This document shows, one piece after another, positions 2,228-63,340 of a DNA stretch of 64,000 nucleotides; position 1 is the stretch's first letter, and every line of letters begins with the position of its first letter. The notes under the pieces are model-generated. The model saw only the letters and a program-made list of their open reading frames with translations. It was not told where the DNA came from and did no database searches. This stretch comes from Eledone cirrhosa (lineage: Eukaryota), in assembly GCA_964016885.1 (NCBI GenBank), contig OZ024741.1, positions 95,790,001 through 95,854,000 of the forward strand. The letters are read 5' to 3'. A program made the position numbers and the translations under genes.

Positions 2228-2305
<78 letters not shown>

Positions 2306-2434
2306 GAGGTTATATTTAATTTGCTGGGATACAACAAGCAAATATTTTTATAACTGATATAAAGCACTCAACAAATTATTGGAGTAAAAATACAATATAT
2401 TAACAAATGGAAACTATATTTATAAAACCATATT

Positions 2435-2499
2435 TATTTCATTATACATATTTCAAGGACACCAAAGCAAATTATGGTGCGCTTTCATCAGATAAAATA
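2435..2499 (-). ncRNA. Type I hammerhead ribozyme motif (family A, left arm)
   Basis: Reverse complement of 2646-2710. Confidence 0.8.
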
Positions 2500-2645
2500 T
2501 AATATAGATCAGTTTTAGAAACAAATATTGACATACCCTTAAAGAATGCGACCATGTCGGTTGGAAGCTCCCGGAAGCTTCCAACCGACATGATCGCATT
2601 CTTTAAGGGTATGTCAATATTTGTTTCTAAAACTGATCTATATTA

Positions 2646-2710
2646 TATTTTATCTGATGAAAGCGCACCATAATTTGCTTTGGTGTCCTTGAAATATGTA
2701 TAATGAAATA
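2646..2710 (+). ncRNA. Type I hammerhead ribozyme motif (family A)
   Basis: TATTTTAT-CTGATGA-[AAG..CACCA..TGGTG..CTT]-GAAA-TATGTA-TA-ATGAAATA. 8-bp stem I, self-complementary stem III, AUA triplet. Confidence 0.85.
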
Positions 2711-2751
2711 AATATGGTTTTATAAATATAATTTCCATTTGTTAATATATA

Positions 2752-2839
<88 letters not shown>

Positions 2840-2879
2840 GATATTAAACAAATGGAAACTATATTTATAAAACCATATT

Positions 2880-2945
2880 TATTTCGTTATATATATTTCT
2901 GGGATATCATATTAAAAATATGGTATGCCTTCCTCAGACAAAATA
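2880..2945 (-). ncRNA. Type I hammerhead ribozyme motif (family A, left arm)
   Basis: Reverse complement of 3083-3148. Confidence 0.8.
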
Positions 2946-3082
2946 CAATATATAAGCTGTTTTATAAATAATTTTGACATACCTTAGAATAATGCAACTT
3001 CCATTTAAAAAGTTGATTTTTAAATGGAAGTTGCATTATTCTAAGGTATGTCAAAATTATTTATAAAACAGCTTATATATTG

Positions 3083-3148
3083 TATTTTGTCTGAGGAAGG
3101 CATACCATATTTTTAATATGATATCCCAGAAATATATATAACGAAATA
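3083..3148 (+). ncRNA. Type I hammerhead ribozyme motif (family A)
   Basis: TATTTTGT-CTGAGGA-stem II-GAAA-TATATA-TA-ACGAAATA. Compensatory A-U to G-C change in stem I relative to 2646-2710. Confidence 0.85.
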
Positions 3149-3503
3149 AATATGGTTTTATAAATATAGTTTCCATTTGTTTAATATCGTAAACCTACTC
3201 CAAAAACTGTTGAGTGCTTTTATATCAGTTATAAAATATTTACTCGTTGTAACCCAACAATTTTAAATAAAACTTTTGCATATATATATATATATATATT
3301 AGAAAGTGAGGTTTTTTTTACAAAATAAAAGATAACCGAGGTGTCCTACACAAGTGAAAGTATAAGGAAAAAAGATGAAATCGAAAATGCGACTGGAGTC
3401 TTTTTTTTTTAAATTTATATTTATTTGGTTCCTTTACCGGTTTCGCAGTTCTTCTGCTTTTCAAAAGTAGAATTGAGATCGCGAGCCTGTGGTTTTTCTC
3501 ACA

Positions 3504-3670: not shown

Positions 3671-3867
3671 TAACGAAGGAAATGTGGTAAGGAACCAGAT
3701 GGACCATAACGCACCAAAGTACTCAATACTTAGGGTAGTAGAGTAGGTAATAGGAACGAGTAGGACCCCGACGGCTGAGCTCAAGCCGTTTCGACGGCTA
3801 ATTCTGGACTCAGTCCAGAATTAGCCGTCGAAACGGCTTGAGCTCAGCCGTCGGAGTCCTACTCGTT

Positions 3868-3872
<5 letters not shown>
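3671..3872. mobile_element. Fold-back element, family B (arms 3750-3810 / 3812-3872, tail 3671-3749)
   Basis: 61-bp arms around a 1-nt apex. Each arm carries the 3' half of an HHR (GAAA-CGGCT..AGCCG-TC). TA-repeat flanks. Confidence 0.85.
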
Positions 3873-10322: not shown

Positions 10323-10511
<189 letters not shown>

Positions 10512-10618
10512 ATAATAATAAATTTGAAGACTAAAATCCAAAGAGGGCTCGATAAGGATAAATATATATCAGACATATAAGAACCGTAGAGCAAATATTT
10601 ATTAAAATAACAGATTAA

Positions 10619-10669
10619 AGTTTAAGCAAAGAATCGCTGCTTTCACCCTTAACGGCATCTTCTGAAACT
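10619..10669 (-). ncRNA. Hammerhead motif with CAGAAGA core in the 3' pLTR
   Basis: Minus strand AGTTT-CAGAAGA-TGCCGTTAAGGGT-GAAA-GCAG..TTGC-TT-AAACT. Confidence 0.7.
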
Positions 10670-10759
10670 AAAAAAGTCAATCTGTAAACGCAGAAGTAAA
10701 TATTTCAAAAAACGTTGCAACCGAAAGAAGACAGGAAGACGATATTTTGGTTCGTGGAA

Positions 10760-11031
10760 ACGTTCCCTGGCAAAGAACGGGAAAGAAACGAAGATAATAC
10801 GTCATTATTTGGTACGTTGAAAACAATTACACGCAAAGACAAAACCACGTTTATGGTATAAATGAAGTCGTAGACTAATATTCTATTAGGTGGTCATGGA
10901 GACATTCCCTGGCAATGAACGAAAAAAACGAAGATAATACGTCATTATGTGGAGCAATGAGAACAATTACACGCAAAGACAAAACCACGTTTATGATATA
11001 ACTGAAGTCGTAGACTAAAATTCTACTTAGG
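10760..11031. repeat. Two-copy ~140-bp tandem duplication in the PLE 3' UTR
   Basis: TTCCCTGGCAA..GAAGATAATACGTCATTAT..GTAGACTAA occurs at 10763 and at 10905. Confidence 0.85.
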
Positions 11032-11686
11032 AAACCGAAAGATTCTCGGCTTCAGAGTTAAGAATAAAGTAAATAAAATACAGAGGTAATTGAAATTAAA
11101 TATATACATACATACACAAGCATACGCGAAAACACTCACCATGGGTATGCAAATACAAGCACGTACACAAAAAAACACGCACGCACATACAGAACCCACG
11201 CAACGCCTTTACCCGCACACATACGAACGTATACACCAAATACACATAAAAACATATATAAAAACATATATATATATATACATGTGTGTGTGTGTGTGTG
11301 TGCGTGTATACATAATTAAATAAACGTATATAAATATACACACATAAATACGTATATAACGCGCGCACACACATACCCACATGTAAATACACATATGTTC
11401 GCAGACGTACGTCAACTCAACCAAAACACACACCCTACATACGTACGAACCCGCATACTCACACAGACGCAAAACTCACGTATGCACATAACCAAATGCA
11501 CATGTACCAGTATATATAATATATGCGCCAATAACATATACAAGCAAATATACGTACGAGAAAGTATACGTACCTTCACAAAACATACAGGTAATATATA
11601 CTTACCTATACGAATAAGTAATGGTATTAACATAACATATACTTAGCTACCACATCAAGACGTAAAATATCCGCGTATAGTTGGTA

Positions 11687-12277
11687 CTATCCGTTAGGGT
11701 ATAATGTGGGGCTGTAATACAGGAAAGTTTTGTGCAATTTATGTTTACAAGCCGAAATTGCTTCAGATATTTTGTTTAAGATGTGGTCTTTGGCGTAGAG
11801 TATTTCCAGGGCCTCAGTGGCGCAGAGGTCACATGGTCTTTTATTTCCGTTATACGATTCAGCCTCAGCTAGGATCTCCCAGTGTAACCTAAATTGGGTG
11901 TGGTTGTCTTTTAGACTCCAGATATAAGCTGAAAGTAACGTCATATTCCATCTTAAAGGGTTAAGAAAAGAATGGGCACAGCATGTAAAGACGCTGCTTG
12001 AATCTATTGGCGGTTAACCCTATGTAGGCCCCCACGGGACGTGGGTGTTTCAACCCTACCGGATGGGGGGCAGTCAACCCGATTCCTACAATTACAGTTA
12101 GTACTAGCTACAGGGTTGCACGTGTTCCTACGGCTAGGTAATTTAGCTAAATTTGAAGCTGTGATGTTATGTGCAAGGGTAGGAGTCGTAGAGTAAGAAA
12201 TTTTAATGGTATTTCTATTAAAAATGTTACTATATTTATGTGGTGGGAGGAAATGCTTTATAATAAGGGAGAGAAAG
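11687..12277 (-). pseudogene. PLE RT-thumb/linker plus GIY-YIG endonuclease remnant
   Basis: Hand translation FLSLIIKHF..IFNRNTIKISYSTTP..CNCRNRVDCP..YIGLTANRFKQR, then track ORF LSAYIWSLK..WEIL..CDLCATEALEI..LNK. Frameshifted and partly deleted. Confidence 0.9.
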
Positions 12278-12303
12278 ATCTGCGTTCACAGATTGACTTT
12301 TTT

Positions 12304-12354
12304 AGTTTCAGAAGATCCCGTTAAGGGTGAAAGCAGAGATTCTTTGCTTAAATT
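12304..12354 (+). ncRNA. Hammerhead motif with CAGAAGA core in the inverted 5' pLTR
   Basis: AGTTT-CAGAAGA-TCCCGTTAAGGGT-GAAA-GCAGAGATTCTTTGC-TT-AAATT. Confidence 0.7.
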
Positions 12355-12367
12355 TTAATCTGTTATC

Positions 12368-12398
<31 letters not shown>

Positions 12399-12401
<3 letters not shown>

Positions 12402-12617
12402 AAAGGTAAACAGAAATAACAACACAATCGGTACAGTATATGGAAGGTATATATTAGGTTAACGCTTGATATAGCAGGAAGAGGGTCTTCAGGTTTCGGA
12501 CGCTAGTCCTTCATCAGAAGAAATAATGAGAAATAAAATAAATTAAGGGGACGGGCGGGATGGAATTGGAAAAAAATGTCTTTAGATAAAAATAATAGGT
12601 CCATTCATGTTGACATC
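12399..12617 (-). mobile_element. Family D pLTR-like repeat with minimal HHR at 12486-12521 (cleavage triplet mutated)
   Basis: Close homologue of 58497-58717. Minus strand TCTT-CTGATGA-AGGAC-TAGC-GTCC-GAAA-CCTG-AAGA. Confidence 0.75.
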
Positions 12618-12641
12618 TCTTGCAAAACTGCTGGAGCTGGC

Positions 12642-14453: not shown

Positions 14454-14551
14454 TATAAAGATATGTGTAAATGTATTCCGAAGTTAAATTGTGTATCTGT
14501 ATGTGTGTATAGTATAATATATTTACATTTATATACATATATGAGTATATT

Positions 14552-14600
<49 letters not shown>

Positions 14601-14677
14601 ATGTATATATACATATATGTTCATACACATATGTACATATATATATAATGTACATATATATATATATAAATATATAT

Positions 14678-14772
<95 letters not shown>

Positions 14773-14794
14773 TCATAGATAGATATTATATATA

Positions 14795-14829
<35 letters not shown>

Positions 14830-14877
14830 TATATATATATGTACATATATGTATGTATATATACATAAGTGTGTGTG

Positions 14878-14930
<53 letters not shown>

Positions 14931-15025
14931 CATACTCATATGTGTATATAAATGTAAATATATTATACTATACACATATACAGATACACAATTTAACTTC
15001 GGAATACATTTACACATATCTTTAT
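14454..15025. repeat. Inverted duplication centred on (TC)n(TA)n(GA)n
   Basis: 14454-14650 is the reverse complement of ~14826-15025, including the (CA)n/(TG)n tract. Confidence 0.85.
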
Positions 15026-15051
15026 ATATATATATCTTTATATATACACAT

Positions 15052-15114
<63 letters not shown>

Positions 15115-15513
15115 AACTTATGAAAGGTTGTATGACCTGAGGGATGTACATTATATATATGTCTGTTGTCAAATTATTATTAGAAAGCAATGACGAAGTA
15201 ATTTAAAAAATAGATATTTTACGTTGTTCATTACTAAAATCACTGCAGGGTACACTTGATAATATTGCAATGGCATACAGGAATGGAACAACGTGACGTC
15301 ACCGCCCATGTCATGGTCGTTATCATTAGCTTTCTCTGTGTGGAAATGTGTTTGTGAATATGTATTAATACATGTCCGCGTATGCTTGTAAAATGTAGCT
15401 ATTAATATATACATGCATATAGGCGCTCACACCACACAAACACACACACATACACACACACTCACACACACACAAATCTCTCTCTCTCTATATATATATA
15501 TATATTATATATA

Positions 15514-15927
15514 TAGACAGTCGATCGACTTTCGTCAAATCGAACCGAGGAAACAATGTTTCCATTGGACTTTACAATTGCTAATTCTATCTATGAGTCG
15601 CAACTCCAGGTAGAAGAAACAACATGAAATAAGGTATTTTGCCAAAGGGCATAACGCATCGCCCGATCCGAGAATCGAACTCACAACCTCACGATTGCAA
15701 ATCCAATTCTCTAACTACTTCGCCTTCATATATACATATATATATTGGATATATACATATAGAATTGGATTTGCAATCGTGAGGTTGTGAGTTCGATTCC
15801 CGAACCTGGCTATGCGTTATGTCCTTGAGCAAAACACTTTATTTCGCGCTGATAGTATTAGCAATTGGAAAGACCAATGGAAACATTGGTTCCTTGGTCC
15901 GATTTGACGAAAGTTGATCGACTGTCG
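15514..15927. mobile_element. Inverted head-to-head pair of a tRNA-derived SINE head fused to another segment
   Basis: Arms 15514-15710 / 15761-15927. B-box-like GTTCGATTCC at 15791 followed by GTCCTTGAGCAAAACACTT. Confidence 0.7.
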
Positions 15928-15940
15928 ATATATATATATA

Positions 15941-15994
<54 letters not shown>

Positions 15995-16879: not shown

Positions 16880-17560
16880 AATACTGCAGAATGTGTTCAT
16901 TTGTTGTGGTCCCAATATATACTGTTGCCGTGTTGACTACTTTTTTCTCTGCCAACTTCCATCTAGCGGGTATGGCTTTGATCCGTTGCAGCTACATTTG
17001 TTTTCGACATAGGATGTGAGTTTCTAGCATTTGGATGTCTATAGCTTGTATAATGTTTTTGGTTTTGGTGAAACTATAGCTAACCTTTTGTTGTTGATAT
17101 TGAATAGCTTGTGATATCTATAGTCTTTTGAGAAATGTTTTGTGATTAGTGTCAAGAGAATGTTTGCAACTTTTATCGCTACGCTGAAACCGCAGACGAG
17201 TACCGGTTGACTTAAATAATGTTTCTTTCCCTGGATTTGTTTGAATTATGGTTCATTTGAGAGGTTTTTGTTTGTATTCCATATTTTCTTTGAAGCTGCT
17301 CAATTTTATGGCTTCCTTGCAGAAGGGTGTTGCTTGGTGGAATATGTTTTTTTCTCGAGAATATTATATAAATATATAAATATTTCTGGCCATTTATATT
17401 TGGGGAAATGTCTGCATATTGTCTTCTTTTCTTGATATACTTAAAATAAGATACATGTGAGAAACTAAGTGAAACCATTTATTGAAATCTAACTACATAA
17501 TAAATCGTACATAAAGGCTTCAGTTATGCTTCTTTTCTGGTTTCGAAACGAAATTGCATG
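16880..17560 (-). pseudogene. Degraded Neptune-type PLE ORF fragment
   Basis: Hand translation RNII..KVANILLTLITKHFSKDYRYHKLFN..KCSC..PLDG..VYIGTT. Confidence 0.75.
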
Positions 17561-22573: not shown

Positions 22574-23062
22574 GAGAGAGCGAGTGAAAGAGAAGGAGTG
22601 AGAAAGAGATATAGAAGAATCGACCCCAGTACTGAACTGGTACTTTATTTATCGACCTCGAAAGGACGGAAACGGAAGGAGGAATACCAAGAAATATTTT
22701 AACATTATAAAAAGAAACATTCTAACATTATAAAAAGAAAGATCACACTACGTACCGTATGGCACATGGCAGCTGGGAATTCATTGGTTACTGCTGGAAA
22801 ACCTTCGATGATTGATCTACTGGATCATGACTGACCCGAAACAAAGACAAAAAATGTGGTACGAACAAATTCCCCATCTCCTATACCTTATAACCTCCAA
22901 AAATCAAATGATAAATCCCCTGTCTGGTCATTGGACTGTTAAAGTTAGCAGAACATTCTCTTTAAAGTCACAGCTCACCGTCTTGAATAAGAAAAATACA
23001 GAGTTACAATATATAGGTTAAAATTGTATCGTTCTCATAAACTTGAGCAATAGATATGTAAT

Positions 23063-23837
23063 AATTGTTTCTACTTTTGGCACAAGGCTAGCAATTCTCC
23101 CAGTGCATTACTGGTGCTTTATTTTATCGACCCCGTAAGGATGAAAGGCAAAGTACGACCCTCTACCGGTAGAGTATGAGTAATATTTGTTTCTACTTTT
23201 GGCACAAGGCCAGCAATTATCCCAGTGTATTACTGGTACTTTATTTTATCGACCCCCGTAAGGATGAAAGGCAAAGTTAACCTCGGCGGGATTTGAACTG
23301 AGACCATAAAGGGCCGTAACTCTTTGCTTGCAAAGCATGGCGTCAGACCCTCTACCGATACTGCCAATCCACCGCAGAGTATGAGTAATAATATGAATTT
23401 CTCCGCTTCTGTCAAACACTTGATACATACATTCTGCAAACAATTTGAACTATTTAACCATTTTATTATTAGCTCTTAAAATGCCCTATATGATCTGAGT
23501 TCAAATCCCGCCGAGGTTAACTTTGCCTTTCATCCTTAAAATAAAGTACCAGTAACGTAATGGGGGTCGATTTAATCGGCTTTCCACTCCCACCAAATTA
23601 TTGGCCTTGTGCCTATACTAGAAATAATTATTAGCTCTTAAAATCCTGTAGCACATAAAACCACGTTAGTTTGACATTCTTGAAAAGTACAAAACAGTAC
23701 TAACTGCATCATATTAATAACTGATTCAAATCCCGCCGAGGTTGACTTTGCCTTTCATCCTTACGGGGTCGATAAAATAAAGTACCAGTGAGGCACTGGG
23801 TAGTTGCTGGCCTTGTGCCTAAATTAGAAACAATTAA
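23063..23837. mobile_element. Cluster of four tRNA-derived SINE copies (two minus, then two plus)
   Basis: B-box GAGTTCAAATCCC, then GCCTTTCATCCTTACGGGGTCGATAAAATAAAGTACCAG (Meta-domain-like, from memory), then GGCCTTGTGCC tail. Confidence 0.9.
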
Positions 23838-24719
23838 TAACTGAAATATTTACTCCAATACTCCAAATATTTACATTGATCTGCAGATCAATAAAGATGT
23901 TATACACATTTGAATTAAGAATCCTATTTTTTAAAATATTTTCGGCTAAATCATTACACAATGTTAAGAATTTATTACGTCGGGCGCCCAAGAAGCCCTG
24001 CCATAGTCTTTCTTGTAAGAAAGCAAACTTTCAACCTTCACAAAATGTTTTATATTTCAGAAAATTTTCAAAAGTATATTTGGATAATTCAATAATTCCT
24101 TTAATATATTTTAAAAGACAGATGTTGTTGTTTTTTTCTTTATTTCCTTAATTCTACTTATAAAAATATTATCTCAGCCACTCAAGGAAAGAAAACAATG
24201 AATATATAGACGTACGCTTATATTTATATCAGTAAACACACATACGTAATTACTTGATTGAACAACGGTGGAGGTGATCAGATAGACAATATACATTATG
24301 AAATAAGAAATAGATAAATTATTATAAAGGAAATTAATTTATTTAAAAAATAAGCAATAAAGATCAGAAATGCAAATATAATTAATAAGGGTACAAATAT
24401 AGATAAATGATATATGAAGTATATCTAGAAAATAGAAAATAAAAGATAGATAGTAAAAAAATATAAAATATAGATGTAAATATATAAGAATATAAAAACA
24501 ATAAATAATTAATAAAAATCAATAAGAAATCAATAAATTAATTAATGAAAGCCTAACTATCAGATTCATAGCCAAGTAAATGTAACTGAGTCTCCTAGAT
24601 ATGATAAATATGTGTAGTAATTATAGAGAGGGGAAAATACCAAATCCAGAGTAACTAAAGGCGTTTTGACTATACCCAGGTAGTCCCACTCTACCCGGAT
24701 TAGTTTATGTATACTTGTG

Positions 24720-25035
24720 CGGGTGCAGCATAATCAAATGGTTGAGAGTTTCACTTGAAAAATCATCGGGGCTCGGGTTCGATACAACTGCATGACGTCT
24801 TTAACAAGTGTAATTCACCATAGCATCGAGTCGATCCCTGCCTTGTGAGTGAAACTAAATAGATGGAAACTGTTTGGAAGCCCATCGGATAGACTCTGCT
24901 TGTAATTCCAAAGGCGTGTATTGTCAAATACTGCTTAAGATAAATCCCATGAGAATTATATTAAGGGCACACATTTGTTGAACGCTCAGCGATTTACACG
25001 TTAATTTCATGATCAGTCTCTTCCGTTGATCAAGT
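24720..25035 (+). mobile_element. Second, degraded tRNA-derived SINE family
   Basis: A-box-like TGG plus GGGTTCGATAC, followed by GCCTTGTGAGTG..GATGGAAACTG..GAAGCCC. Confidence 0.6.
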
Positions 25036-25046
25036 CCAGTCCATAA

Positions 25047-25520
25047 TGTTTATACTTTTGGCACAAGGCCAGCAATTACCCCAGTGTATTACTGGTACTT
25101 TATTTTATCGACCCCGTAAGAATGAAAGGCAAAGTTAACCTCAGCGGGTTTTGAGCTCAGAACGTAAAAGGCCATTACTCTATGCTGCAAAGCATGGTGT
25201 CTGACGCTCTACGAATACTGCCAAACCACCGCCCTAGAACTAATAATAATTGTTTCTGATTTAGGCACAAGGCCAACAATTTTTTTTTTGGGGGGGGGGG
25301 GGGGTGTCAATTAAATTACCCAGTACGTTACTGGTACTTTATTGACTCCGTAAGGATGAAAGGCAAAACTAGCCTTGGCAGGATTTGAACTCGTGGCAGA
25401 GAAAGAAGAGACGAAGTAGTGTGAACAATTTAAGAATCAAACAATTAAAGGATGAGAAAGAAGCATTCCCACTGTCGAGACAGTGGAAAGGAGCGAAAAG
25501 GAGGGAGAAAGAGAGAAAGA

Positions 25521-25579
<59 letters not shown>

Positions 25580-25832
25580 GGACTATGGTGGAAAATTAAC
25601 ATGTGAGACAAGCAAGGTTCTAATAGTCCCTAAATATGTAAATACAACAAATAATTGTTATTACTTTTGGCACAAGGCCAGCAATTATATCAGCACATTA
25701 CTGGTACTTTATTTTATCGACCTCGTAAGGATGAAAGGCAAAGTTAACCTCGGCGGGATTTGAACTCAGACCATAAAGGGCTGTAACTCTTTGCTGAAAA
25801 GCATGGCGTCCGACCCCCTACCAATACTGCCA
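25047..25832 (-). mobile_element. Three SINE copies (25047-25233, 25247-25392, 25652-25832)
   Basis: Same consensus as the 23063-23837 cluster. Confidence 0.9.
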
Positions 25833-25968
25833 AGTAATGATCAATGATACAGACTTGCTCTTTTCGATGTGTGTGTGTGCAAAAAGTAATCGAAAAAAAA
25901 CAAAGCAAACAGTACAGTACAATGGAGAAATATATTACTTTAACGCTTGATATACTAGGAAATGAGCA

Positions 25969-26000
25969 TTAACGTTTCGAACACTAGTCCTTCATCAGAA
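25969..26000 (-). ncRNA. Minimal hammerhead motif, family D
   Basis: Minus strand TT-CTGATGA-AGGAC-TAGT-GTTC-GAAA-CG-TT-AA. Stem I is short. Confidence 0.6.
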
Positions 26001-26570
26001 GATAAAATGAGAAATAAAAGATGAAAGGGAAAAATAGAGAGTAAGAAGAAGGAATGGAGAAATGGTTTTTCGAATGGGATCGTAAAGAAACTACCGCTAA
26101 ATAAGGTACTCGATATACGACTAGAGCTGGGTACATATAAAGAGAGAGTGTTTATGTGTGAGTGAGATCCTCGGGCGCAGGTATTTTCTTTGATATATGC
26201 ATATATGTGCGTCTGAGAAGCGGGGAGAGGAGTGTGTGTGTGTGTGTGTGGTACTATTTATCTCTCTATTTCTTTCTACTCCCCCTCTGCCCTCTTCTAG
26301 CTAACTGCTGTGGATTTTTTCACTCTCTCTCTCTTTTTCTCTGTCTCTTCCTCACTCTTCCTCCTCACTCTCTCTCTCACTCTCCCCCTCTCTCTCTCTC
26401 GTCCTCGTTCATTCTTTCTCTTGCTTCTACCCTCTCTATATTTATCCTTCTTCCACACTTACACACGCTCTCCTAAACGATATATATAAATGTGTGTGCG
26501 TGTGTGTATGTGTGGTATGTGTGCGTGTATGTGTGTGTCTGTGTGCACATATGTAGATGTATGTATATAT

Positions 26571-26662
<92 letters not shown>

Positions 26663-26869
26663 GCATGTAGACATATATGCATGTGCATTCAAATATACTC
26701 CAAGTCCATCTCAGTACACGGCGCGCTGATGCGTAAGCAGAAGCGGCAAGTCGCGCCAACATTTTCTAAAGCGAGAGTCGAGTCAAACGCGCTAAAATAC
26801 CGTTTAATTGTCAGCATTCATTTATCGCCCTCCATGTTCTTGCCTCGTTTTCCACACGACTGCTTTGTT

Positions 26870-26922
<53 letters not shown>

Positions 26923-26937
26923 TTGCTGTTGTTGTTG

Positions 26938-26997
<60 letters not shown>

Positions 26998-27139
26998 GAA
27001 TTCCTTGGTGTCATGTGACAAAGACAAGCTTTTAAACACCAGTGGTGTATCAGTGGCATTTTTGTTCGAGATGTCTCGTTCAAGTTCCATTATTGAGTCT
27101 CCATGACAACAAGTGTTGACAGAAAGAATGGCACATGAA

Positions 27140-27800
27140 ACAAGTGGTGGTGATGGCGGCGGTACTTGTACTGCTGGTGATAGTAGTGGTAGTGATGGTT
27201 GCAGTGGTTGTGGTGGTGGCGGTGGTGGTGATGGTGGTGGTGGTGGTAGTGGTGGTGGTGGTGATGTTTGTGGTGATGATGGTAGTGGTGGTGATGGTGG
27301 TGATGGTGATGTTAGTGGTGGTGATGGTAGTGGTGGTGAGGTTGGGTGGTGGTGGTGGTGATGATAGTAGTGGTGGTGATGGTAGTGTTGGTGATGGTGG
27401 TTGTGGTGGTAGTGGCGGTGGGGGTTGTGGTGGTGGTGATGGTAGTGGTGGTGGTGGTGGTAATGTTAGTGGTAGTGGTGGTGGTGGTGATATTAGTGCT
27501 AGTGATGGTGGTGGTGGTGATGGTAGTAGTGACGGTGGTTGTAGTGGTGGTGGTGATGATGGTGGTGGTGATGGTGGTGGTGGTGGTGATGTTAGTGGTG
27601 GTGATAGTTGTGGTGGTTGTGGTGGTGGTGTTTGTGGTGGTGGTTGTGGTGTTGGTAGTGGTGATGTTAGTGGTGATGGTAGTGGTGGTGAAGGTTGTGG
27701 TGTTTGGGGTGGTTGTAGTGGTGGTGGTTGTGGTTGTGGTGGTGGTGGTTTGGTAGTGGCGGTGATGGTAGTGGTGGTGGTGTTGCTGTTATTGATGTTG
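27140..27800. repeat. Degenerate (GGT)n low-complexity tract
   Basis: GGT/GAT/AGT triplet mosaic. A complementary-type (CCA/CTA)n tract lies at 28100-28430. Confidence 0.9.
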
Positions 27801-27873
27801 TTGGTGAAAGTTTTAGATTCGACACCATCGTTTTGATATTCTCGGTGAAGTGAAAGACATTATTTATTTCCTT

Positions 27874-28060
27874 GTGGATTGGCAGTATCGGAAGCGGGTC
27901 GGACGCCATGCTTTGACGCAAAGAGTTATGGCCCTTGCCATTCTGAGTTCAAATCCTGCTAAGGATAACTTTGTCTTTCATCCTTAGGGGGTCGATAAAA
28001 TAAAGTACCAGTAATACACTGGGTAATTGCTGGCCTTGTGCCAAAAGTAGAAACAATTAT
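27874..28060 (+). mobile_element. SINE copy
   Basis: GTGGATTGGCAGTATCGG..GAGTTCAAATCC..GGGGTCGATAAAATAAAGTACCAG. Confidence 0.9.
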
Positions 28061-29027
28061 TATTTCAATGACTATATTACACTTTCTAACATCACCTCAT
28101 CCACTACTACACCAGCACTACCACACCATCACTACCACACCACCACTACCACAGCACCACTACTACACCAGCACTACCACACCATCACTACCACACCATC
28201 ACTACCACACCACCACTACCACACCACTACTCCACACCACCACTACCACACCACCACAACAACACTACCACTACCACACCACCACTACCACACCACCACT
28301 ACCACACCCCACCACTATCACACCACCACTACAACATCACCACAACCACACCACCACTACCACACCAACACTACCACACCACCACTGCCATACAACACCA
28401 CCACTACTACCCGACAACACCACAACTAGACCAATAAAACCCCTAACACGACCTCCTTCCTCGATTACACGGCATCAAAACAGCATCAAAACCATCCCCG
28501 CGAGCTAATAAAGAAGCCTTTTCGCAGTTCTATTTGCAAAACATTTCAGCCAAATCTTTCTCAACTGCTATGACACTGTCTCCAAATATGGTAAACTATA
28601 CAAAAGAAACTAATACTGAATATAATAAAGCAGAAATGTAGGCGTGGTCATGGTTAGAAGACCGACCGAATGATTTGTACTTGAAACGTGTAAATATTGT
28701 GACAGAATGACAATGGCTAGGAATCTACATGAATCCTTCTCTAAAATAAGTATAAAGATGTGTTACAGTCTTTAAAATGATCTCACAAGCAGCCTCAAAC
28801 AAAAAGGTTTGCAAATACTCCGGTAAAATTCACGACTTAATCGAGAATATAACAACAACAGTGACATCAATTCTACTAATATAAACATGAAGTTCCCTTG
28901 TTATCTCCCCTGCAACATAACAGTCCCACACAATATATTTTAAAATAAACGCTAACTCACAAAACTAAATATTGTTAACACGACACAAATTGAATTACAC
29001 ATCACAACATCAAGGACATAACAAAAA

Positions 29028-29253: not shown

Positions 29254-29362
<109 letters not shown>

Positions 29363-29514
29363 TAGACGGGTGTGTATGATTGTGTATAGAAGATTATATT
29401 AATAAGAGGAATTCCAACTTTGTCTGATTTACTCGTTTTATTTACAATCCTTTAAAATTTATAATGGTATTATAATGAAATAGTATGGTAGAATATTAAA
29501 TGTTAAGTGTTAAT

Positions 29515-29553
29515 TGAACAAGTACTTTCATGGTTTCGCAATCTTCAGGTTCA
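29515..29553 (-). ncRNA. Minimal hammerhead motif (left arm)
   Basis: Minus strand TGAAC-CTGAAGA-TTGCGAAACCAT-GAAA-GTAC-TT-GTTCA. Confidence 0.8.
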
Positions 29554-29643
29554 TAATGTGTGGTGACAGTCAAGTTTGCAATTTTCACAATTTTCACAAT
29601 TTTCACAGTTGAAAATTGCAAACTTGACTGTCACCACACACTA

Positions 29644-29682
29644 TGAACCTGAAGATTACGAAACCATGAAAGTACTTGTTCA
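29644..29682 (+). ncRNA. Minimal hammerhead motif (right arm)
   Basis: TGAAC-CTGAAGA-TTACGAAACCAT-GAAA-GTAC-TT-GTTCA. 5-bp stem I, palindromic AGTACT stem III, weak stem II. Confidence 0.75.
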
Positions 29683-29794
29683 ATTAACACTTAACATTTA
29701 ATATTCTACCATACTATTTCATTCTAATACCATTATAAATTTTAAAGGATTGTAAATAAAAGGAGTAAATCAGACAAAGTTGGAATTCCTCTTA

Positions 29795-29919
<125 letters not shown>

Positions 29920-33766: not shown

Positions 33767-33816
33767 ATATATATATATACTGTAGAAGTGGTTACACAAC
33801 AGTTAGTTCACCATAC

Positions 33817-33854
33817 CGAGAACAATTGTTTCACCTTAGTGGATCCTCAGTTCG
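33817..33854 (-). ncRNA. Minimal hammerhead motif (family C, left arm)
   Basis: Reverse complement of 33943-33980 with 2 substitutions. Confidence 0.7.
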
Positions 33855-33942
33855 TAATGGACATGGTTATACGGAACAGGAAGGACAACCGTACGAACGC
33901 ACATGCGGTTGTCCTTCCTGTTCCGTATAACCATGTCCATTA

Positions 33943-33980
33943 CGAGCTGAGGATCCGCTAAGGTGAAACAATTGTTCTCG
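33943..33980 (+). ncRNA. Minimal hammerhead motif (family C)
   Basis: CGAG-CTGAGGA-TCCGCTAAGGT-GAAA-CAATTG-TT-CTCG. Confidence 0.8.
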
Positions 33981-34476
33981 GTATGGTGAACTAACTGTTG
34001 TGTAACCACTTCTACCTAACTTGTCCCATGGACTGAGTGCTCTACCACTACAGATATTACCTTCCAGTGTTCTACCACTATATATATACTGTATATATAT
34101 AGGGAGAGAGAGAGAGAATCTGCGGTACTGAGACTGAGGAGACCACCAATGATGAGAGCACTCTATACATGGCTAGATGCAGAGGGGGTATAGAGGGATG
34201 TATAATCCCTACTGCGGTGCCAAGCGGTTTCGGCTTGTGTAAGCTTTGTGCCTCCGACATAATTATAGCTAACTCTCAATATATATATATGTATACATGT
34301 ATATATAAAAAAAGAATTTTTCGCTCTACATGGCTGAATACAATAAATGTAATCTGAGTTTTTTGAATATTAATAATAATATTCGATTCGTTTACAATTA
34401 TGCAAACGCCCTCATTTTTAAAGCCATTTCAGTAGAATGAGCCCCTCAATCTTGGTCTTGTGTTGGCATGTAAACA

Positions 34477-34526
34477 GAACTGCAGACAATAATGTTTCTG
34501 GGTATCACCCTTCATCAGTACATCTC
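34477..34526 (-). ncRNA. Hammerhead motif (family F, left arm)
   Basis: Reverse complement of 34584-34633 with minor changes. Confidence 0.75.
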
Positions 34527-34583
34527 ACTGTTCACCTGCCAACTGCCAGAGCTAGTGAAAATATATGTGAAAATATATACAGT

Positions 34584-34633
34584 GAGCTGTACTGATGAAG
34601 GGTGATACCCAGAAACATTAGTGTCTGCAGTTC
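34584..34633 (+). ncRNA. Type I hammerhead ribozyme motif (family F)
   Basis: GAGCTGTA-CTGATGA-AGGGT-GAT-ACCCA-GAAA-CATTAGTG-TC-TGCAGTTC. 8-bp stem I, GUC triplet. Confidence 0.88.
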
Positions 34634-34756
34634 TGTTTACATACCAAAATAAGAACAAGAATGAGTAGCTCATTCTACTGACGTGGCTTTTAAAATAAGC
34701 TTGTTTGCAAACGAATCGAATATTATTATTAATATTCGAAAAACTCAGATTACATC

Positions 34757-34846
<90 letters not shown>

Positions 34847-40525: not shown

Positions 40526-41104
40526 TGTATTATGAGAGCTGACCAGACGGAAAATGCCGCACCATAAAACTAGCGCTCCTTTCCTCACAACAATTACATT
40601 TATATTACATTTAGGTTTAATTGTGTTGACGATTCATACCCACACTGGATTCCTACGATTCTTGATTTCCCCTTACGCTGCTTACACTCACGCCAACACA
40701 CACAACATGTATGCACATATGTATGCATTCATATATACATATATAAAATTGTAATAATATGTGATATTCAACAATATATATATAAGTACGCATGCACGCA
40801 TTATTATGTATTTGTACTGTTAAAATATACACAACAATAGTGAACATTGCCTAACACTTCTGTCTCTCACACACGTACACATTATATAGTTATATATATG
40901 CACACACACTCACATACACACCTTATACATACACACACACACACATATACATATATATATATATATATAATAAATATAATCTGAGTTTTTCGAATATTAA
41001 TGATAATATTCGATTCATTTGCAATTATGCAAACAGCCTCTTTTTTAAAAGCCATGTCAGTAGAATGAACCCTTCATTCTTGCTCTTGTGTTGGCATGTA
41101 AACA

Positions 41105-41154
41105 GAACTGCAGACACTAATGTTTCTGGGTATCACCCTTCATCAGTACAGTTC
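41105..41154 (-). ncRNA. Type I hammerhead ribozyme motif (family F)
   Basis: Minus strand GAACTGTA-CTGATGA-AGGGTGATACCCA-GAAA-CATTAGTG-TC-TGCAGTTC. Confidence 0.88.
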
Positions 41155-41218
41155 ACTGTTCACCTGTCAACTGTCAGAGCTAGTGAAAATATATGATATT
41201 TTCTAAAATATAGAATGA

Positions 41219-41514: not shown

Positions 41515-41560
<46 letters not shown>

Positions 41561-41595
41561 CATAAGATCAAAAAGATGGTTAAAAGAGTTCCATG

Positions 41596-41666
41596 TATTT
41601 TATTATGCGCATTTCAAAAACAAATATCATCATGCAATAACATTTGCGTTTTCGTCAGATAAAATA
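41596..41666 (-). ncRNA. Type I hammerhead motif (left arm)
   Basis: Reverse complement of 41765-41835, stem I fully Watson-Crick. Confidence 0.82.
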
Positions 41667-41764
41667 GGGAGACATGATATGAAGGTTAAAATACACTTGT
41701 GAATAGTGCAGTTTTAAATCAACACTATTCACAAGTGTATTTTAACCTTCATATCATGTCTCCC

Positions 41765-41835
41765 TATTTTATCTGACGAAAACGCAAATGTTATTGCATG
41801 ATGATATTTGTTTTTGAAATGCGCATAATAGAATA
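41765..41835 (+). ncRNA. Type I hammerhead motif (right arm)
   Basis: TATTTTAT-CTGACGA-..CAAATGTTATT..GATGATATTTG..-GAAA-TGCGCA-TA-ATAGAATA. Confidence 0.85.
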
Positions 41836-41957
41836 CATGGAACTCTTTTAACCATCTTTTGATCTTATGTATTATTTATACTCCAGTCCTACAAACTGTA
41901 GAGTGCTTCTTATCCGATATCTGCATTGCTTTATTGTACTACAATAAAACTCACCTC

Positions 41958-45592: not shown

Positions 45593-45596
45593 ATAT

Positions 45597-45781
45597 AAGT
45601 AGTTCCACAACAGTTAGTTCACCATACCGAGAACAAATGTTTCACCTTATTTGGATCCTCAGCTAGGTCTAAATCTGTTCTCGGTATGGTGAACTAACTG
45701 TTGTGGAACTACTTCTACCAAACTCATCCCATGGACTGAGTATTCTACTACTACGGATATAACCCACCAGTGTTCTACTAT
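45597..45781. mobile_element. Family C fold-back element, short-apex copy (HHR at 45628-45666, minus strand)
   Basis: Arms 45597-45635 / 45676-45714 and the same tail as 34016-34080. Confidence 0.85.
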
Positions 45782-45885: not shown

Positions 45886-46459
45886 AGTAAAGTATAAGTT
45901 ATAAGTTTGAAAGGTAAAAAAACGAAGGTAGGGTTGGGATGGGAGGGGGGCTCGGGGGAATATGTTTAATGTTTAATGTCGATTTCGTTGTCTTATGGGA
46001 TCCTCGTTCAGGGGGACGAACTGGTCTATATGACTTGTAAGTTGCATAGTTTTTGTGCATGCAATTCGGGCAGTCTATTGAGTAAGGATCCTTTGGCGAA
46101 TAGTATTTCGTAACTCTCGGAAATACAAAGGTCACAACAATTATGGCCTCCTGTGTAAGACCGCGCTCTCTGGATTAGTTTCCATTTGAGCGTAAAGGGG
46201 ATGGAGTTCCTTTTTAGGTCCCAGACATGGGCGGCGAGTGTTGTTTGGTTGGACTTGTCCGGGCAGTAGGTTATTTGTTATTAATACATAGAACATCTCA
46301 ATGACTCAATAAAGATATTGTTAAAAATACCTAATTCAGAGAAGAGTATACATATAGAATAATTTATACAAGGAGACCGATGGAAACTTCAGTAAGGGAA
46401 AAGGTGATAGTGAAGCTTTCCTGTTTTAGTTTGCTTTACTAGGAATCTAGTAAAACAAA

Positions 46460-50230: not shown

Positions 50231-50259
50231 TGTGTATTATATCAGATGCAGCATCAATC

Positions 50260-50422
50260 AACGGCCCTTTATGATCTGAGTTCAAATCCCGCCGAGGTTA
50301 ACTTTACCTTTCATCCTTACGGGGTCGATAAAATAAAGTACCAGTCACGCACTGGGGTCGATTTAATCGACTTTCCCCTCCCCCCAAATTTGCTGGCCTT
50401 GTGCCTATATAAGAAACCATTA
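50260..50422 (+). mobile_element. SINE copy
   Basis: Same SINE consensus as the other copies. Confidence 0.9.
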
Positions 50423-50685
50423 TCTTGACTGGAATCCATAGCTCGTTCTTTTATTGAGAAACATATTACATACGCACACCCACAGACAAGCACACACACA
50501 CACACATGCACACACACGAGCACACACACTCACAGAGAAGCACACACACACATGCACACACACGAGCACACACACTCACAGAGAAGCACACACACACACC
50601 CACACTGACCCCCCCACACACACACTGGCACACAAACACACACACACACACACACAGACACACCAACAGACAAGCACACTCTGAC

Positions 50686-52228: not shown

Positions 52229-53151
52229 ATTTTGTTATACTTGGGGAGGGTCATATTGTTGTAATAATATTGCCAGAATTAATAACAGAACACACTCACT
52301 GTCAAAAATACAGATATAATATAGACACAAACACATATATATAGTCTAACAAAGTTCTTTCGTGGCACATCTGCAACATGGTCAGTGGTGCTATTATGTT
52401 TCCTCCTTTTGTATTGTATTTCTACGCCATCTTTATTTAATCTGTTTATTTATGTATGTCGCCTATGTATGTTGTTGTCATGTTTCTGCAAGTACCCTCT
52501 GTACATCTTATGCTATAGACTACGTTTCTAGTTTTACAGTTTATCCGGGAGTTTACTTTACATATAATACATTTCCTATTAGTACCCTTTTAAGAAAACC
52601 CACTGTACTAATAGGAAATGTATCATATGTAAGGTGAATCCCCGGATAAACTGTAAAACTAGAAACGTAGTCTATAGCATAAGATGTACAGAGGGTACTT
52701 GCAGAAACATGACAACAACATACATAGGTGAGACAGCTCGTAGCATAGGTGAAAGGATAGACCAACACTGGGGGGAACTAAAAGAACGAAAAAAGGGTTC
52801 AGTACTATACGAACACGCATGCGCAGAGAAGAAGACAAAAATAAATAAATAAATAAACAGATTAAATAAAGATGGAGTAGACATACAATACAACAGGAGG
52901 AAACATAATAGCACCACTGACCATGTTGCAAATGTGCAACGAAAGAACTTTGTTAGACTATATATGTGTTTGTGTCTATATTATATCTGTATTTTTGACC
53001 ATTGGTCAGGCAATGGTAAACATTGAGGACCGAATAAATTAACTGATATAAAAGATACATAAGCAAAAACCAACCAAACAGTGAGTGTGTTCTGTTATTA
53101 ATTCTGGCGATATTATTACAACAATATGACCCTCCCCAAGTATAACAATAT
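52229..53151. mobile_element. ~0.9-kb fold-back of a deleted PLE (apex ~52586-52604)
   Basis: Left arm is the reverse complement of the right arm minus two blocks. HHR-like CTGACCA-TGTTGCA-AATG-TGCAAC-GAAA at 52915-52952, mirrored at 52350-52387. Confidence 0.88.
52604..52830 (+). pseudogene. PLE Cys-rich linker plus GIY-YIG fragment
   Basis: CTNRKCIIC..NCKTRNVVYSIRCTEGTC..YIGETARSIGERIDQH..SVLYEH. Confidence 0.9.
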
Positions 53152-54023: not shown

Positions 54024-54687
54024 CAATAAACACTTTACAACTTCACATAAATACTATAAAATCTTTAACTCGCGCACCATTAGACTCTCATACTCCACTG
54101 TACCTAACATAGAACAACTAATTAAAAAACTCAACTCAGCAATACTGAATAAGTACATCCCTAATGACTCAGCGCACCAGCATAGCAACATACAACGCAC
54201 TAACACGCAACTACAACCCCACCAAACTATCCAGGATTCTACTGCAAAACATAAAAATAATTGTAACTGCACCAAACCAGGTACGTGCCCACTGAATAAC
54301 CAGTGCCTAGCACGCAATAATGTCTACCGATGTACAATAAATTCCGGAACCAACAAATGGTATTACGTCGGATGTACCGCAACTTCTTTCAAGGCTCGCC
54401 TATGCCAACATCGATCTTCGATCAGGCACGAGGAAATGCGCTCCGTAACAACCCTCGCCGATAAAGCCTGGCAGCTCCGGAGGAACAATCAAGCATTCTC
54501 CCTTGATTGGCAAATTATTGAAGCTGCGCCTGCATATAAGCAAAATCATCGATTCTGCAAGTTATGCAATTTAGAGATATACTGCATTTTAACGTCGGTA
54601 AACAAACTTTTGAACAGCAAAATTGAACGTTCTCTATACTGTAACCATCGTTTGAAAACGACTTTTTCTTTTTTTAAATGCATATAA
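54022..54687 (+). CDS. 5'-truncated but stop-free C-terminal ORF of a Neptune-type Penelope-like element (linker plus GIY-YIG endonuclease)
   Basis: About 221 uninterrupted codons: [77 protein letters not shown]. Confidence 0.9.
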
Positions 54688-55335: not shown

Positions 55336-55728
55336 GCACGTATATACACATGACTTAATAGATATACATACAAAAAACTTACATATACAATACACATATG
55401 TATGCATCCACATATTGTGAGTTATTAATTTATTATTTCTAGATATTTGTGCAATATGTCACAGTTATCTGATTTTTGTCACAAATATATTTTCAAAACA
55501 TATATTTTCGTAGTCAGATTATGGAAGAATAGTCAAACAACGTTTGGAGATTTTTGCCGGATTGGTTTTTGTAGCTTTACTGCATTTCGCAATTAGTTAC
55601 CTGGAGTTGTATTAAGAAAATATTCACAATAGCAAAAGTCATTCTCCCACGACATAGGTTATTCTCACATGCTATAGGAATGGACTTTGATTATTCATAT
55701 TTTGTATTCAATGCCCCTCCCCAACTAT

Positions 55729-55914
55729 TAATTGTTTCTACTTTTGGCACATGGCCAGCAATTATACAAGTGCATTACTGGTACTTTATTTTATCGACCC
55801 CGTAAGGATGAAAGGCAAAATTAACCTCGGCGGGATTTGAACTCAGACCGTAAAGGGACGCAACTCTACACTGGAAAGTATGGTGTCCGACCCCCTACCG
55901 ATACTGCCAATCCA
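55729..55914 (-). mobile_element. SINE copy
   Basis: Same SINE consensus as the other copies. Confidence 0.9.
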
Positions 55915-58384: not shown

Positions 58385-58717
<333 letters not shown>

Positions 58718-58759: not shown

Positions 58760-58932
58760 GGTAACCACATAAAGAACTCTCATACATTAGTAGAGTGTAA
58801 ACATCAAGTTTAATATAGAAATGGCTTCTACAGGACTAGAACTGTTTCACTCAAAAGAAATCATCAAGATAATTTCGTTTGAATGAAACAGCTCTAATCC
58901 TGCAGAAGTCACTTCTATATTAAACTTGATAT
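58760..58932. mobile_element. Fold-back element (arms 58803-58861 / 58872-58930) with HHR remnant at the apex
   Basis: 59-bp arms with several transitions. Minus strand TTGATGA-TTTCTTTTGAGT-GAAA-CAG-TT. Confidence 0.75.
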
Positions 58933-62915: not shown

Positions 62916-63161
62916 AGGGTCACGCATATAAAATTGTGTGAAGATCCTTAAAGCGGGAAACAGAAGTTGATATCGGCCGCTACGAAGAATCGAACTTCGT
63001 ATCTCCCAGATACCGGCTAATAAAAGATACAGTATGTTAGAAAAAAAAAAAGAAAATAGAAATTGTTGGATGGCTTCTATAAGATGTTCATCGTAAGGTG
63101 TTTCTTAGTATTTATAGTATTAGAATTAGGGAGTAATGCTTAGTATTCATTATAATTGAGC

Positions 63162-63340
63162 AGTGGATTGGCAGTATCGGTAGAGGGTTGGACACCATGC
63201 TTTGCAGCATAGAGTTACGGCCCTTTATGATCTGAGTTCAGATCCCGCCGAGGTTAACTTGCCTTTCATGCTTACGGGGTCGACAAAATAAAGTACCAGT
63301 AATACACTGAGGTAATTGCTGGCCTTGTAGAAACAATTAT
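63162..63340 (+). mobile_element. SINE copy
   Basis: Same SINE consensus as the other copies. Confidence 0.9.

What the first reader, a model, noticed from the sequence alone, without database searches (positions are those of the whole stretch)
10530..12372. Missing link: PLE endonuclease remnant bracketed by inverted HHR-bearing ends
Seen: a Neptune-type GIY-YIG remnant (minus strand) with a downstream HHR and tail, and at its truncation point an inverted ~94-bp copy of the HHR segment. This matches the short hairpins except that the loop is 1.6 kb. It supports a PLE origin for the whole class.
Basis: partly seen in the sequence, partly recalled or inferred. Interest (0 to 1): 0.7.

Follow-up and report, generated by a model that had tools for sequence, protein, structure and literature searches.

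The report
Two-armed Hydra-clade Penelope retroelement insertion
This is a broken copy of a very abundant Penelope-like jumping gene joined head-to-head to a short second copy of its own end, a known insertion shape, and its many relatives suggest that each such insertion is likely built from two separate DNA copies started at two fixed points on the element's RNA.

Summary
In detail: 10595-10694 and 12279-12378 are inverted copies (94/100), and 12281-11690 is a broken GIY-YIG endonuclease end. It is Hydra clade, not Neptune (CxCX5C, CxxC, CxH, no CCHH; DKT in longer copies). The family has a 3.26-kb RT-EN unit and at least 17,933 ends. An inverted 5'-truncated copy at the junction is published PLE anatomy (Craig 2021). 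The arm shares no sequence with the window's other hairpins, so it is no link by itself. Tested separately, 4 of 5 hairpin families lead to PLE ORFs (three Hydra, one Neptune).

In a position-ordered sample, 34 of 36 head-to-head pairs combine one short end (E1) and one tailed end (E2). 5' ends pile up at the hammerhead's first base, mostly after a non-templated G, likely the RNA cap. Both point to two separately primed cDNAs rather than fold-back. The hammerhead core carries U4A in 99% of copies; cleavage is untested.

The scan already noted these stubs, uneven ends, RNA-start folds and U4A elsewhere in this genome. I found the extra G in no note or paper searched.

The parts
10475..10508 (.). 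(TA)n target run at the long arm's 3' end, beside a (TC)n run
   Evidence: sequence
10509..10594 (-). 'Tail' between the two preferred 3' ends E1 (~10595) and E2 (~10506-10509). In full-length copies it is the 5' UTR that precedes the ATG by about 45 nt
   Evidence: L151-L154
10595..10694 (-). 3'-terminal segment of the long arm, the part repeated in the inverted arm
10619..10669 (-). Type I hammerhead-like motif with U4A core and a private stem II mismatch. Its first base (10669) matches the family's 5'-end hotspot, the likely RNA start; predicted cut 10624/10623
10695..11686 (-). 3' UTR with an internal 140-bp direct repeat (10752-10890 / 10894-11031, 88%) and a CA/TA-rich tract, both shared by family copies
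11687..12281 (-). 5'-truncated ORF remnant: end of the linker and a Hydra-type GIY-YIG endonuclease (CNCRNRVDC, CDLC..E, N..CKH), broken by a 33-bp deletion and two frameshifting insertions
12279..12281 (.). Head-to-head junction of the two arms with 3-bp microhomology
   Evidence: (gap -3)
12279..12372 (+). Inverted short arm: a second 5'-truncated copy of the element's end, without tail (E1 end)
12304..12354 (+). Hammerhead-like motif (U4A core) in the short arm
12371..12398 (.). (TA)n target run at the short arm's 3' end, shared with an unrelated HHR-bearing repeat that starts at 12399

Best explanation
This is a decayed, 5'-truncated copy of a Hydra-clade Penelope-like retrotransposon in a (TA)n run, joined head-to-head to a 100-nt second copy of its own 3' end, likely because both ends of the cut target primed reverse transcription, one at site E2 and one at site E1 of the element's RNA. 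Shown: clade motifs, a 3.26-kb RT-EN unit, the tail as 5' UTR, one E1 plus one E2 end per palindrome, freely varying arm lengths, a 5'-end hotspot at the hammerhead's first base with excess non-templated G, and a fixed U4A core. Inferred: the RNA is capped and starts at that base in the upstream pLTR. An RT-EN protein (a dimer by analogy with the Anolis PLE) cuts both strands of (TA)n and starts one cDNA at E1 and one at E2. The two cDNAs stop independently and are joined by microhomology end joining. cDNAs primed near the RNA's 5' end run off at the cap and give the shortest hairpins (arms of about 75 and 160 nt). cDNAs primed at a downstream repeat of these sites give long, lopsided ones such as this copy (1,776 + 100 nt). 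Both start sites lie 3' of the predicted hammerhead cut, so the template must be uncut, and self-cleavage is likely dispensable for this family's spread.
For: Clade and unit. Orientation: among the first 100 exact motif matches on C1, 16 neighbour pairs within 5 kb are head-to-head (spacing 198-4,943 bp, a continuum), against 1 tail-to-tail and 4 same-strand. End rule: 31 of 33 resolved pairs among 52 junctions in 88 similarity-picked loci (p 6.5e-8). In the position-ordered sample 34 of 36 (p 1e-9 against 0.47 expected). In family C 31 of 33. All 7 other HHR palindromes of the window show one tailed and one untailed arm (read). 5' hotspot: 12 of 100 arms end at 10669-10671, against 2 in 10672-10700. 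Extra G: 15 of 24 non-T flanking bases (p 1.3e-4), or 12 of 18 after removing four non-end rows and one duplicate palindrome. In 3 of 4 junctions where both arms end at 10669, both arms carry it. U4A: 17,933 exact A matches against 181 with C/G/T; 39 of 39 arms picked through the endonuclease have A at position 4. In vitro, the Anolis PLE cuts and extends both strands, has two RT start sites that bound the tail, is predicted to be a dimer and does not need HHR cleavage (PMC11167929).
Against: No RNA data: the RNA start and cap rest on genomic junctions only. The pile-up at 10669 lies at the edge of the search motif, so shorter arms were seen only as mates. The extra-G count is small and T-flanked ends cannot be scored. 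The Anolis study saw no difference in start site between the two strands, so the one-E1-one-E2 rule is not explained by published biochemistry. Paired arms are only modestly closer than unrelated copies (0.059 vs 0.078; 17 of 22 below the median; p 0.0015), and this window's pair is not closer (rank 0.62), so one RNA versus two is open. For 12 of the 36 pairs direct adjacency was not checked, and 2 of these broke the rule. Long copies with E2 ends need templates that extend past E2 (tandem sources such as L154, L341); this was not shown to be the source. Pfam gave no hit for any of the 6 proteins tested, and no RT tree was built.
Confidence: 0.7

Rival explanations
1. One cDNA folds back on itself and copies itself into a hairpin; lopsided forms arise by later deletion or template jumps.
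For: Many short palindromes are nearly symmetric (L031, L041, L053). Paired arms are somewhat more alike than unrelated copies. One pair shares a rare variant in both arms (L305).
Against: Arms end at different fixed sites in 34 of 36 pairs. Arm lengths vary independently with clean junctions (gaps mostly -15 to +15). At RNA-start junctions both arms carry their own extra G around a non-palindromic spacer (L187, L278, L343). Some mates differ at core position 4 (L278, L282).
Confidence: 0.12
2. Two independent insertions of the same family into one (TA)n hotspot, adjacent by chance.
For: TA runs do collect several elements: an unrelated repeat shares the run at 12371-12398, and two palindromes share 2745-2840. 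The window's arms are no closer than random copies.
Against: There is no TA at the junction, only a 3-bp microhomology. Orientation is 16 head-to-head to 1 tail-to-tail. The E1+E2 rule holds across families.
Confidence: 0.05
3. The U4A motif is a slow but working ribozyme, for example protein-assisted or dimeric, that processes or circularises the RNA, and a circular RNA supplies the sequence beyond E2.
For: Stems I-III and the rest of the core are kept across the family. A natural U4C variant keeps some activity in a viroid (PMC3088659). The Anolis HHR needs protein to cleave. Circular templates have been proposed for PLEs (PMC4209133).
Against: The cap-like G and the fixed RNA start point to a linear capped template. 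No mate 5' end listed falls at the predicted cut (10623). The canonical family C shows none at its cut either (0 of 100), so this test does not separate the cases.
Confidence: 0.2
4. Assembly artefact (chimeric inverted read) or a DNA-transposon/MITE with terminal inverted repeats.
For: Inverted terminal repeats and AT-rich flanks.
Against: The arms differ at 6 of 100 sites and have different ends. Arm lengths vary from under 50 to over 2,000 bp. The interior encodes PLE RT-EN. Public contigs hold over half of the sampled words of the stretch in 3 of 4 listed runs (one study, possibly the same sample).
Confidence: 0.02

Closest known systems
Hydra clade of C-terminal EN+ Penelope-like elements (Craig et al. 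2021, PMC8557442), e.g. Penelope-2_HM, Hydra-1_Obim, Penelope-13_HM
   Same: Single RT-EN ORF with DKT, CxCX5C, CxxC and CxH and no CCHH; (TA)n target; HHR with an extra base before stem II; partial tandem pLTR; inverted 5'-truncated copy at the 5' end (annotated for Penelope-13_HM in supplement S1).
   Different: A distinct family: its sequence differs by eye from Hydra-1_Obim (identity not computed). Unit 3.26 kb (most are under 3 kb); RWR instead of RWK; tail ~86-90 nt instead of 30-40; core U4A where all 24 Hydra families listed in supplement S2 have U4.
Poseidon PLE of Anolis (PAc), Frangieh et al. 2024, PMC11167929
   Same: Two RT start sites bounding the tail, 3' of the HHR cut and near the pLTR-ORF junction; AT-rich target; both strands cut and extended; HHR cleavage not needed in vitro.
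   Different: Different clade. In PAc the start sites lie inside the ORF, here in the 5' UTR. No strand-specific use of the two sites was seen in vitro, whereas genomic pairs here take one of each.
Metazoan PLE hammerheads (Cervera and de la Pena 2014, PMC4209133)
   Same: Type I motif in pLTRs, mostly solo copies from truncated PLEs, and pairs on opposite strands 100-700 bp apart.
   Different: Non-palindromic 4-bp stem III with a 9-nt loop, CUU triplet and U4A core. The core variant named in the parts I read is U3-A8.
Neptune clade PLEs
   Same: C-terminal GIY-YIG; head-to-head stubs with a one-sided tail (the window's 29271-29918 family is of this type).
   Different: Neptune has a CX2-5CxxC linker and CCHH; this element has neither.
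LINE-1 twin priming (recalled)
   Same: Two target ends prime on the element's RNA and give an inversion joined by microhomology; extra 5' G from the cap is known for L1 (recalled).
   Different: In L1 the two parts do not overlap. Here both arms usually hold the same 3' segment, and the two start sites are fixed.

Membership tests
Hydra-clade PLE | Single ORF with RT and C-terminal GIY-YIG EN | tested here: met
   L018, L022 and L023 run from RT or N-terminal region into EN in one frame; no fully intact copy among the 12 long loci fetched
Hydra-clade PLE | CxCX5C linker | tested here: met
   CNCRNRVDC in the window; definition
Hydra-clade PLE | CxxC and CxH around conserved E and N; no CCHH | tested here: met
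   CDLC..E..LNK..CKH; matches supplement rows
Hydra-clade PLE | DKG modified to DKT | tested here: met
   HSDKTGN in L010, L018, L022, L028
Hydra-clade PLE | RWK motif | tested here: inconclusive
   RWR at the same place in L022, L152, L153; a conservative change
Hydra-clade PLE | (TA)n target | tested here: met
Hydra-clade PLE | Placement in RT/EN phylogeny | not tested
   reference proteins seen only as supplement text; no tree built
Neptune-clade PLE | CX2-5CxxC linker Zn finger | tested here: not met
   present in L248/L257 of another family
Neptune-clade PLE | CCHH motif within GIY-YIG core | tested here: not met
   family copies read IVYKCKVETPTSRRAYIG with no C-x-x-C between the half-motifs
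Canonical type I hammerhead ribozyme | Stems I-III around the core | tested here: met
   12 of 12 pairs in L152, 11 of 12 in the left arm, 12 of 12 with one G-U in the right arm; not the MFE fold
Canonical type I hammerhead ribozyme | CUGANGA core | tested here: not met
   CAGAAGA; 17,933 vs 181 genome-wide
Canonical type I hammerhead ribozyme | Self-cleavage | not testable with these tools
   needs an in vitro assay
Non-LTR retrozyme | Non-coding tandem units each with a complete HHR | tested here: not met
   the unit is a 3.26-kb coding element; definition

The most novel reading that the evidence does not exclude
PLE integration is a two-primer reaction with assigned roles: each target end starts its own cDNA, one always at E1 and the other at E2. 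cDNAs primed near the RNA's start are copied to the cap, leaving an extra G on both arms. This one rule generates the whole range from 150-bp HHR hairpins to multi-kb inverted structures. A family can reach more than 18,000 copies with a crippled (U4A) hammerhead, so the motif would serve as an RNA-start or RNP landmark rather than as a needed ribozyme.
Probability: 0.45. Interest if true: 0.62.

Novelty: new member of a known kind. Interest (0 to 1): 0.36.

Why it matters
The locus itself is ordinary dead transposon debris of a published shape. Its value is as one of more than 18,000 natural products of PLE integration, a reaction whose later steps are still open (both Craig 2021 and Frangieh 2024 say so). 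The one-short-end, one-tailed-end rule, the RNA-start hotspot with a cap-like G on both arms, and the family-wide U4A core each give a sharp prediction for the existing in vitro PLE assay. They bear on how inverted pLTRs and tails form and on whether PLE hammerheads must cut. They also explain the many 'double-hammerhead hairpins' in this genome as PLE stubs rather than a new element class.

Tried and rejected
The shared start at query position 92 looked like a fixed 5' end. It is an artefact of my query's junction, since other copies continue into RT. Rfam showed only microsatellite-driven miRNA hits in the rows listed. Pfam gave nothing for 2 + 4 proteins. Idea that an active hammerhead brakes copying and leaves 5' ends at the cut site: 0 of 100 family C arms end within -5..-1 of the motif (predicted cut at -3; one mate at -1), so there is no footprint in a canonical family either and the test is uninformative. 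The -35 and -353 peaks there come from variants of my reference copy. Twin hairpins after E1 and E2: both sites are followed by a similar TATTTG(G)CTC..CGGTT motif and a later GAGC. The E2 hairpin folds, but the tail's fold is no better than shuffles (z -0.38) and was not recovered in L152, so this is only partly supported. An ancestral canonical-core subfamily: U4 copies show no private variants and are about a third of the 181 non-A matches (34 of the 100 listed). Family D: no linked ORF in 30 loci. A direct genome-wide count of short palindromes was not obtained; spacing was taken from the first 100 matches instead. Paper searches for U4A, twin priming (62), octopus + Penelope + hammerhead (60), PLE transcription start (81) and untemplated/cap (83) listed nothing that, from titles and abstract starts, reports the E1+E2 rule, the extra G or U4A. 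Subscription papers (e.g. Evgen'ev and Arkhipova 2005, Schostak 2008, Ruffner 1990) and bioRxiv supplements were not seen and may bear on this.

Full report
Observation. The inverted repeat is real: 10595-10694 pairs with 12279-12378 at 94 of 100 positions. Between them the minus strand carries a 3' UTR and a 5'-truncated ORF end (12281-11690). The left arm continues with an ~86-nt tail to 10509, and both outer ends abut (TA)n. The junction has a 3-bp microhomology. The ORF end is 88% identical to family copies, with a 33-bp deletion over the first half of the GIY-YIG motif and two frameshifting insertions. It is dead.

Clade. The remnant reads CNCRNRVDC, then CDLC before the conserved E and CKH after the conserved N, with no CCHH. 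Craig et al. 2021 (PMC8557442; I read passages, sections 6 and 11 whole, supplement part 2 and supplement passages) define exactly this set for the Hydra clade. Neptune has CX2-5CxxC plus CCHH. Longer genomic copies continue upstream in frame into an RT with YRDD, DKT and RWR. Two motif copies in tandem lie 3,259 bp apart (L341). In 4 of the 12 long loci fetched (L151-L154) the tail is followed directly by about 45 nt and the ATG, so the tail is the start of the next unit. Pfam found nothing, and no tree was built. I did not try to name the organism; the genome is 3.0 Gb in 1,796 contigs.

Abundance and known anatomy. A 30-nt motif of the end occurs 17,933 times exactly, and the reversed control 0 times. 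Craig 2021 describe an inverted 5'-truncated copy adjacent to the 5' end, and a tail often at one end only, as typical of PLEs; they annotate it for Penelope-13_HM. Cervera and de la Pena 2014 (PMC4209133; parts 1-2 of 4) report opposite-strand HHR pairs 100-700 bp apart. The structure is therefore already known.

Continuum. Among the first 100 exact matches on contig C1, a position-ordered sample, 16 neighbour pairs within 5 kb are head-to-head, with spacings from 198 to 4,943 bp. One pair is tail-to-tail and four are same-strand. Short palindromes of this family were seen directly (L031, L041, L060, L339, L343).

Does it speak for the class? The arm has no blastn match to the window's other hairpins, so I tested five families separately. 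33782-34015 (with 45594-45717) leads to a second Hydra ORF (L071, L072, L076 among 30 loci). 2395-2750 leads, through a second search step, to a Hydra EN about 1.7-1.9 kb upstream (L198, L200, L201, L209 among 20 loci). 41550-41880 leads to a third (L235, L241 among 25). 29271-29918 leads to a Neptune-type RT-EN (L248, L257 among 25). 34273-34832 gave no linked ORF in 30 loci and reads as a non-coding unit of about 430 bp in partial tandems. So 4 of 5 are PLE ends. 2837-3191 (75% like 2395-2750) and the palindromes without an HHR core were not tested.

End rule. Arms end at one of two sites: E1 (~10595) or E2 (~10506-10509). In 88 similarity-picked loci (14 overlapping loci dropped), 52 head-to-head junctions were found. 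Of the 33 with both ends resolved, 31 were E1+E2 (p 6.5e-8); a few arm merges there are imprecise. In the position-ordered sample ends were 61 E1, 36 E2 and 3 other. All 24 unique adjacent pairs with both ends resolved were E1+E2 (three further mates did not reach an end), as were 10 of 12 longer pairs whose adjacency I did not check (34 of 36, p 1e-9). Family C gave 31 of 33 pairs, hand-picked from the 100 rows as those with a true mate. The window's seven other HHR palindromes each have one tailed and one untailed arm (read). Frangieh et al. 2024 (PMC11167929; parts 1-2 of 4) show in vitro that a PLE cuts and extends both strands, starts at two internal sites that bound the tail, and does not need HHR cleavage. 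They saw no strand difference in site use.

RNA start. 12 of 100 arms end at 10669-10671 (8 exactly at 10669), against 2 in the next 29 positions. The search motif starts at 10669, so shorter arms appear only as mates. That base is the A of TTAGTT (Initiator-like, recalled) and the first base of hammerhead stem I. The element has T before it. Among 241 distinct arms, 40 did not continue upstream. Of the 24 with a non-T flank (two whose G could come from the mate left out), 15 had G (p 1.3e-4), or 12 of 18 after removing four rows that are not true ends and counting a duplicated palindrome once. In L187, L278 and L343 both arms end at 10669 and the spacer reads C...G, so each arm has its own G; L339 has a single one. 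A copied cap is the usual source of such a G (recalled from LINE-1). The start site within the pLTR agrees with Penelope and Chlamys-3. In family C, 36 of 100 5' ends fall in the 21 nt at the HHR's 5' edge (my count). Two arms each copied to the cap fit two cDNAs and not one fold-back.

One RNA or two. Paired arms differ by 0.059 against 0.078 for unrelated copies (22 pairs scored, 17 below the median, Wilcoxon p 0.0015). This window's pair is not closer than random (rank 0.62). Shared source, shared RNA and later gene conversion cannot be separated.

Hammerhead. The motif keeps stems I-III, but position 4 is A in 17,933 matches against 181 for C, G or T (of the 100 listed, 34 T, 40 G, 26 C by my count). 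Among 39 arms picked through the endonuclease, 37 read CAGAAGA and 2 TAGAAGA. Perreault et al. 2011 (PMC3088659; passages) note that U4C lowers activity considerably; U4A does not occur in their main text. Both start sites lie 3' of the predicted cut, so arms that contain the core came from uncut RNA. A search for cut-site footprints was uninformative. Unexplained: 12 of 29 canonical-U4 arms examined (of 34 listed) are RNA-start stubs, against 12 of 100 A arms and 0 of 12 G/C arms (Fisher p 9e-4). This could reflect a minor source with U4 in its 5' pLTR, or a 7-nt micro-inversion of the quasi-palindrome at the junction.

Earlier notes. The scan had already read such palindromes in this genome as Hydra stubs with uneven ends, twin hairpins, folds at the RNA start and U4A cores. 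These are unreviewed and not independent evidence; I saw them after stating my reading, and they prompted the RNA-start and hairpin checks. A word search for the cap G found no note. The retrozyme preprint (10.64898/2026.07.22.740005; part 1 of 5) argues for a PLE origin of HHR repeats in vertebrates.

Verdict. A real but ordinary two-armed insertion of a new Hydra-clade family. Interest 0.36 rests on the family-level rules, which make PLE integration steps testable.

Noticed in passing
window 54028-54675 (+), 46074-46262 (-), 16958-17197 (-): Three more Hydra-type linker/endonuclease remnants of other families in the same 64 kb (tblastn).
   Followed up: no
window 2283-3299: Two related HHR palindromes (75% alike) sit back to back in one TA run, each with its tailed arm outward, which mimics a 1-kb nested palindrome.
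   Followed up: partly
window 34273-34832, 40924-41195; L102, L107, L108, L110: Family D is a non-coding unit of about 430 bp with a canonical HHR in partial tandems and with the one-sided tail; it looks like a retrozyme-type passenger of a PLE.
   Followed up: partly
window 29271-29918; L248, L257: Neptune-type family whose HHR core has almost no stem II and a tail of about 35 nt; it obeys the same one-tailed-arm pattern.
   Followed up: partly
window 12399-12618, 25878-26030, 58470-58717: Another repeat family with a canonical HHR on the minus strand; one copy shares the TA run with the finding's short arm.
   Followed up: no
L059, L173, L192, L197, L276, L277: A recurrent composite with fixed boundaries: this family's last 125 nt (from 10719) and an opposite-strand 51-nt tail piece about 100-190 bp away, likely carried by another repeat.
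   Followed up: no
L060, L154, L284, L292, L369: Some tailed mates stop at or next to E1 (10596-10601), as if the E2-primed copy halted at the other priming site on the same RNA.
   Followed up: no
L271, L272, L278, L282, L284, L286, L292, L294, L295, L301, L306: Copies with the canonical U4 core are enriched among stubs that begin at the likely RNA start (12 of 29 vs 12 of 100).
   Followed up: partly
window 23058-28065, 50247-50423, 55723-55914, 63130-63344: A ~190-bp repeat with about ten copies in both orientations, clustered in 23-28 kb; not identified.
   Followed up: no
window 3750-3872, 14454-15026, 15489-15960, 52229-53151, 58803-58930: Further palindromes without an HHR core in both arms; 14454-15026 is mostly microsatellite. 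Origin not tested.
   Followed up: no
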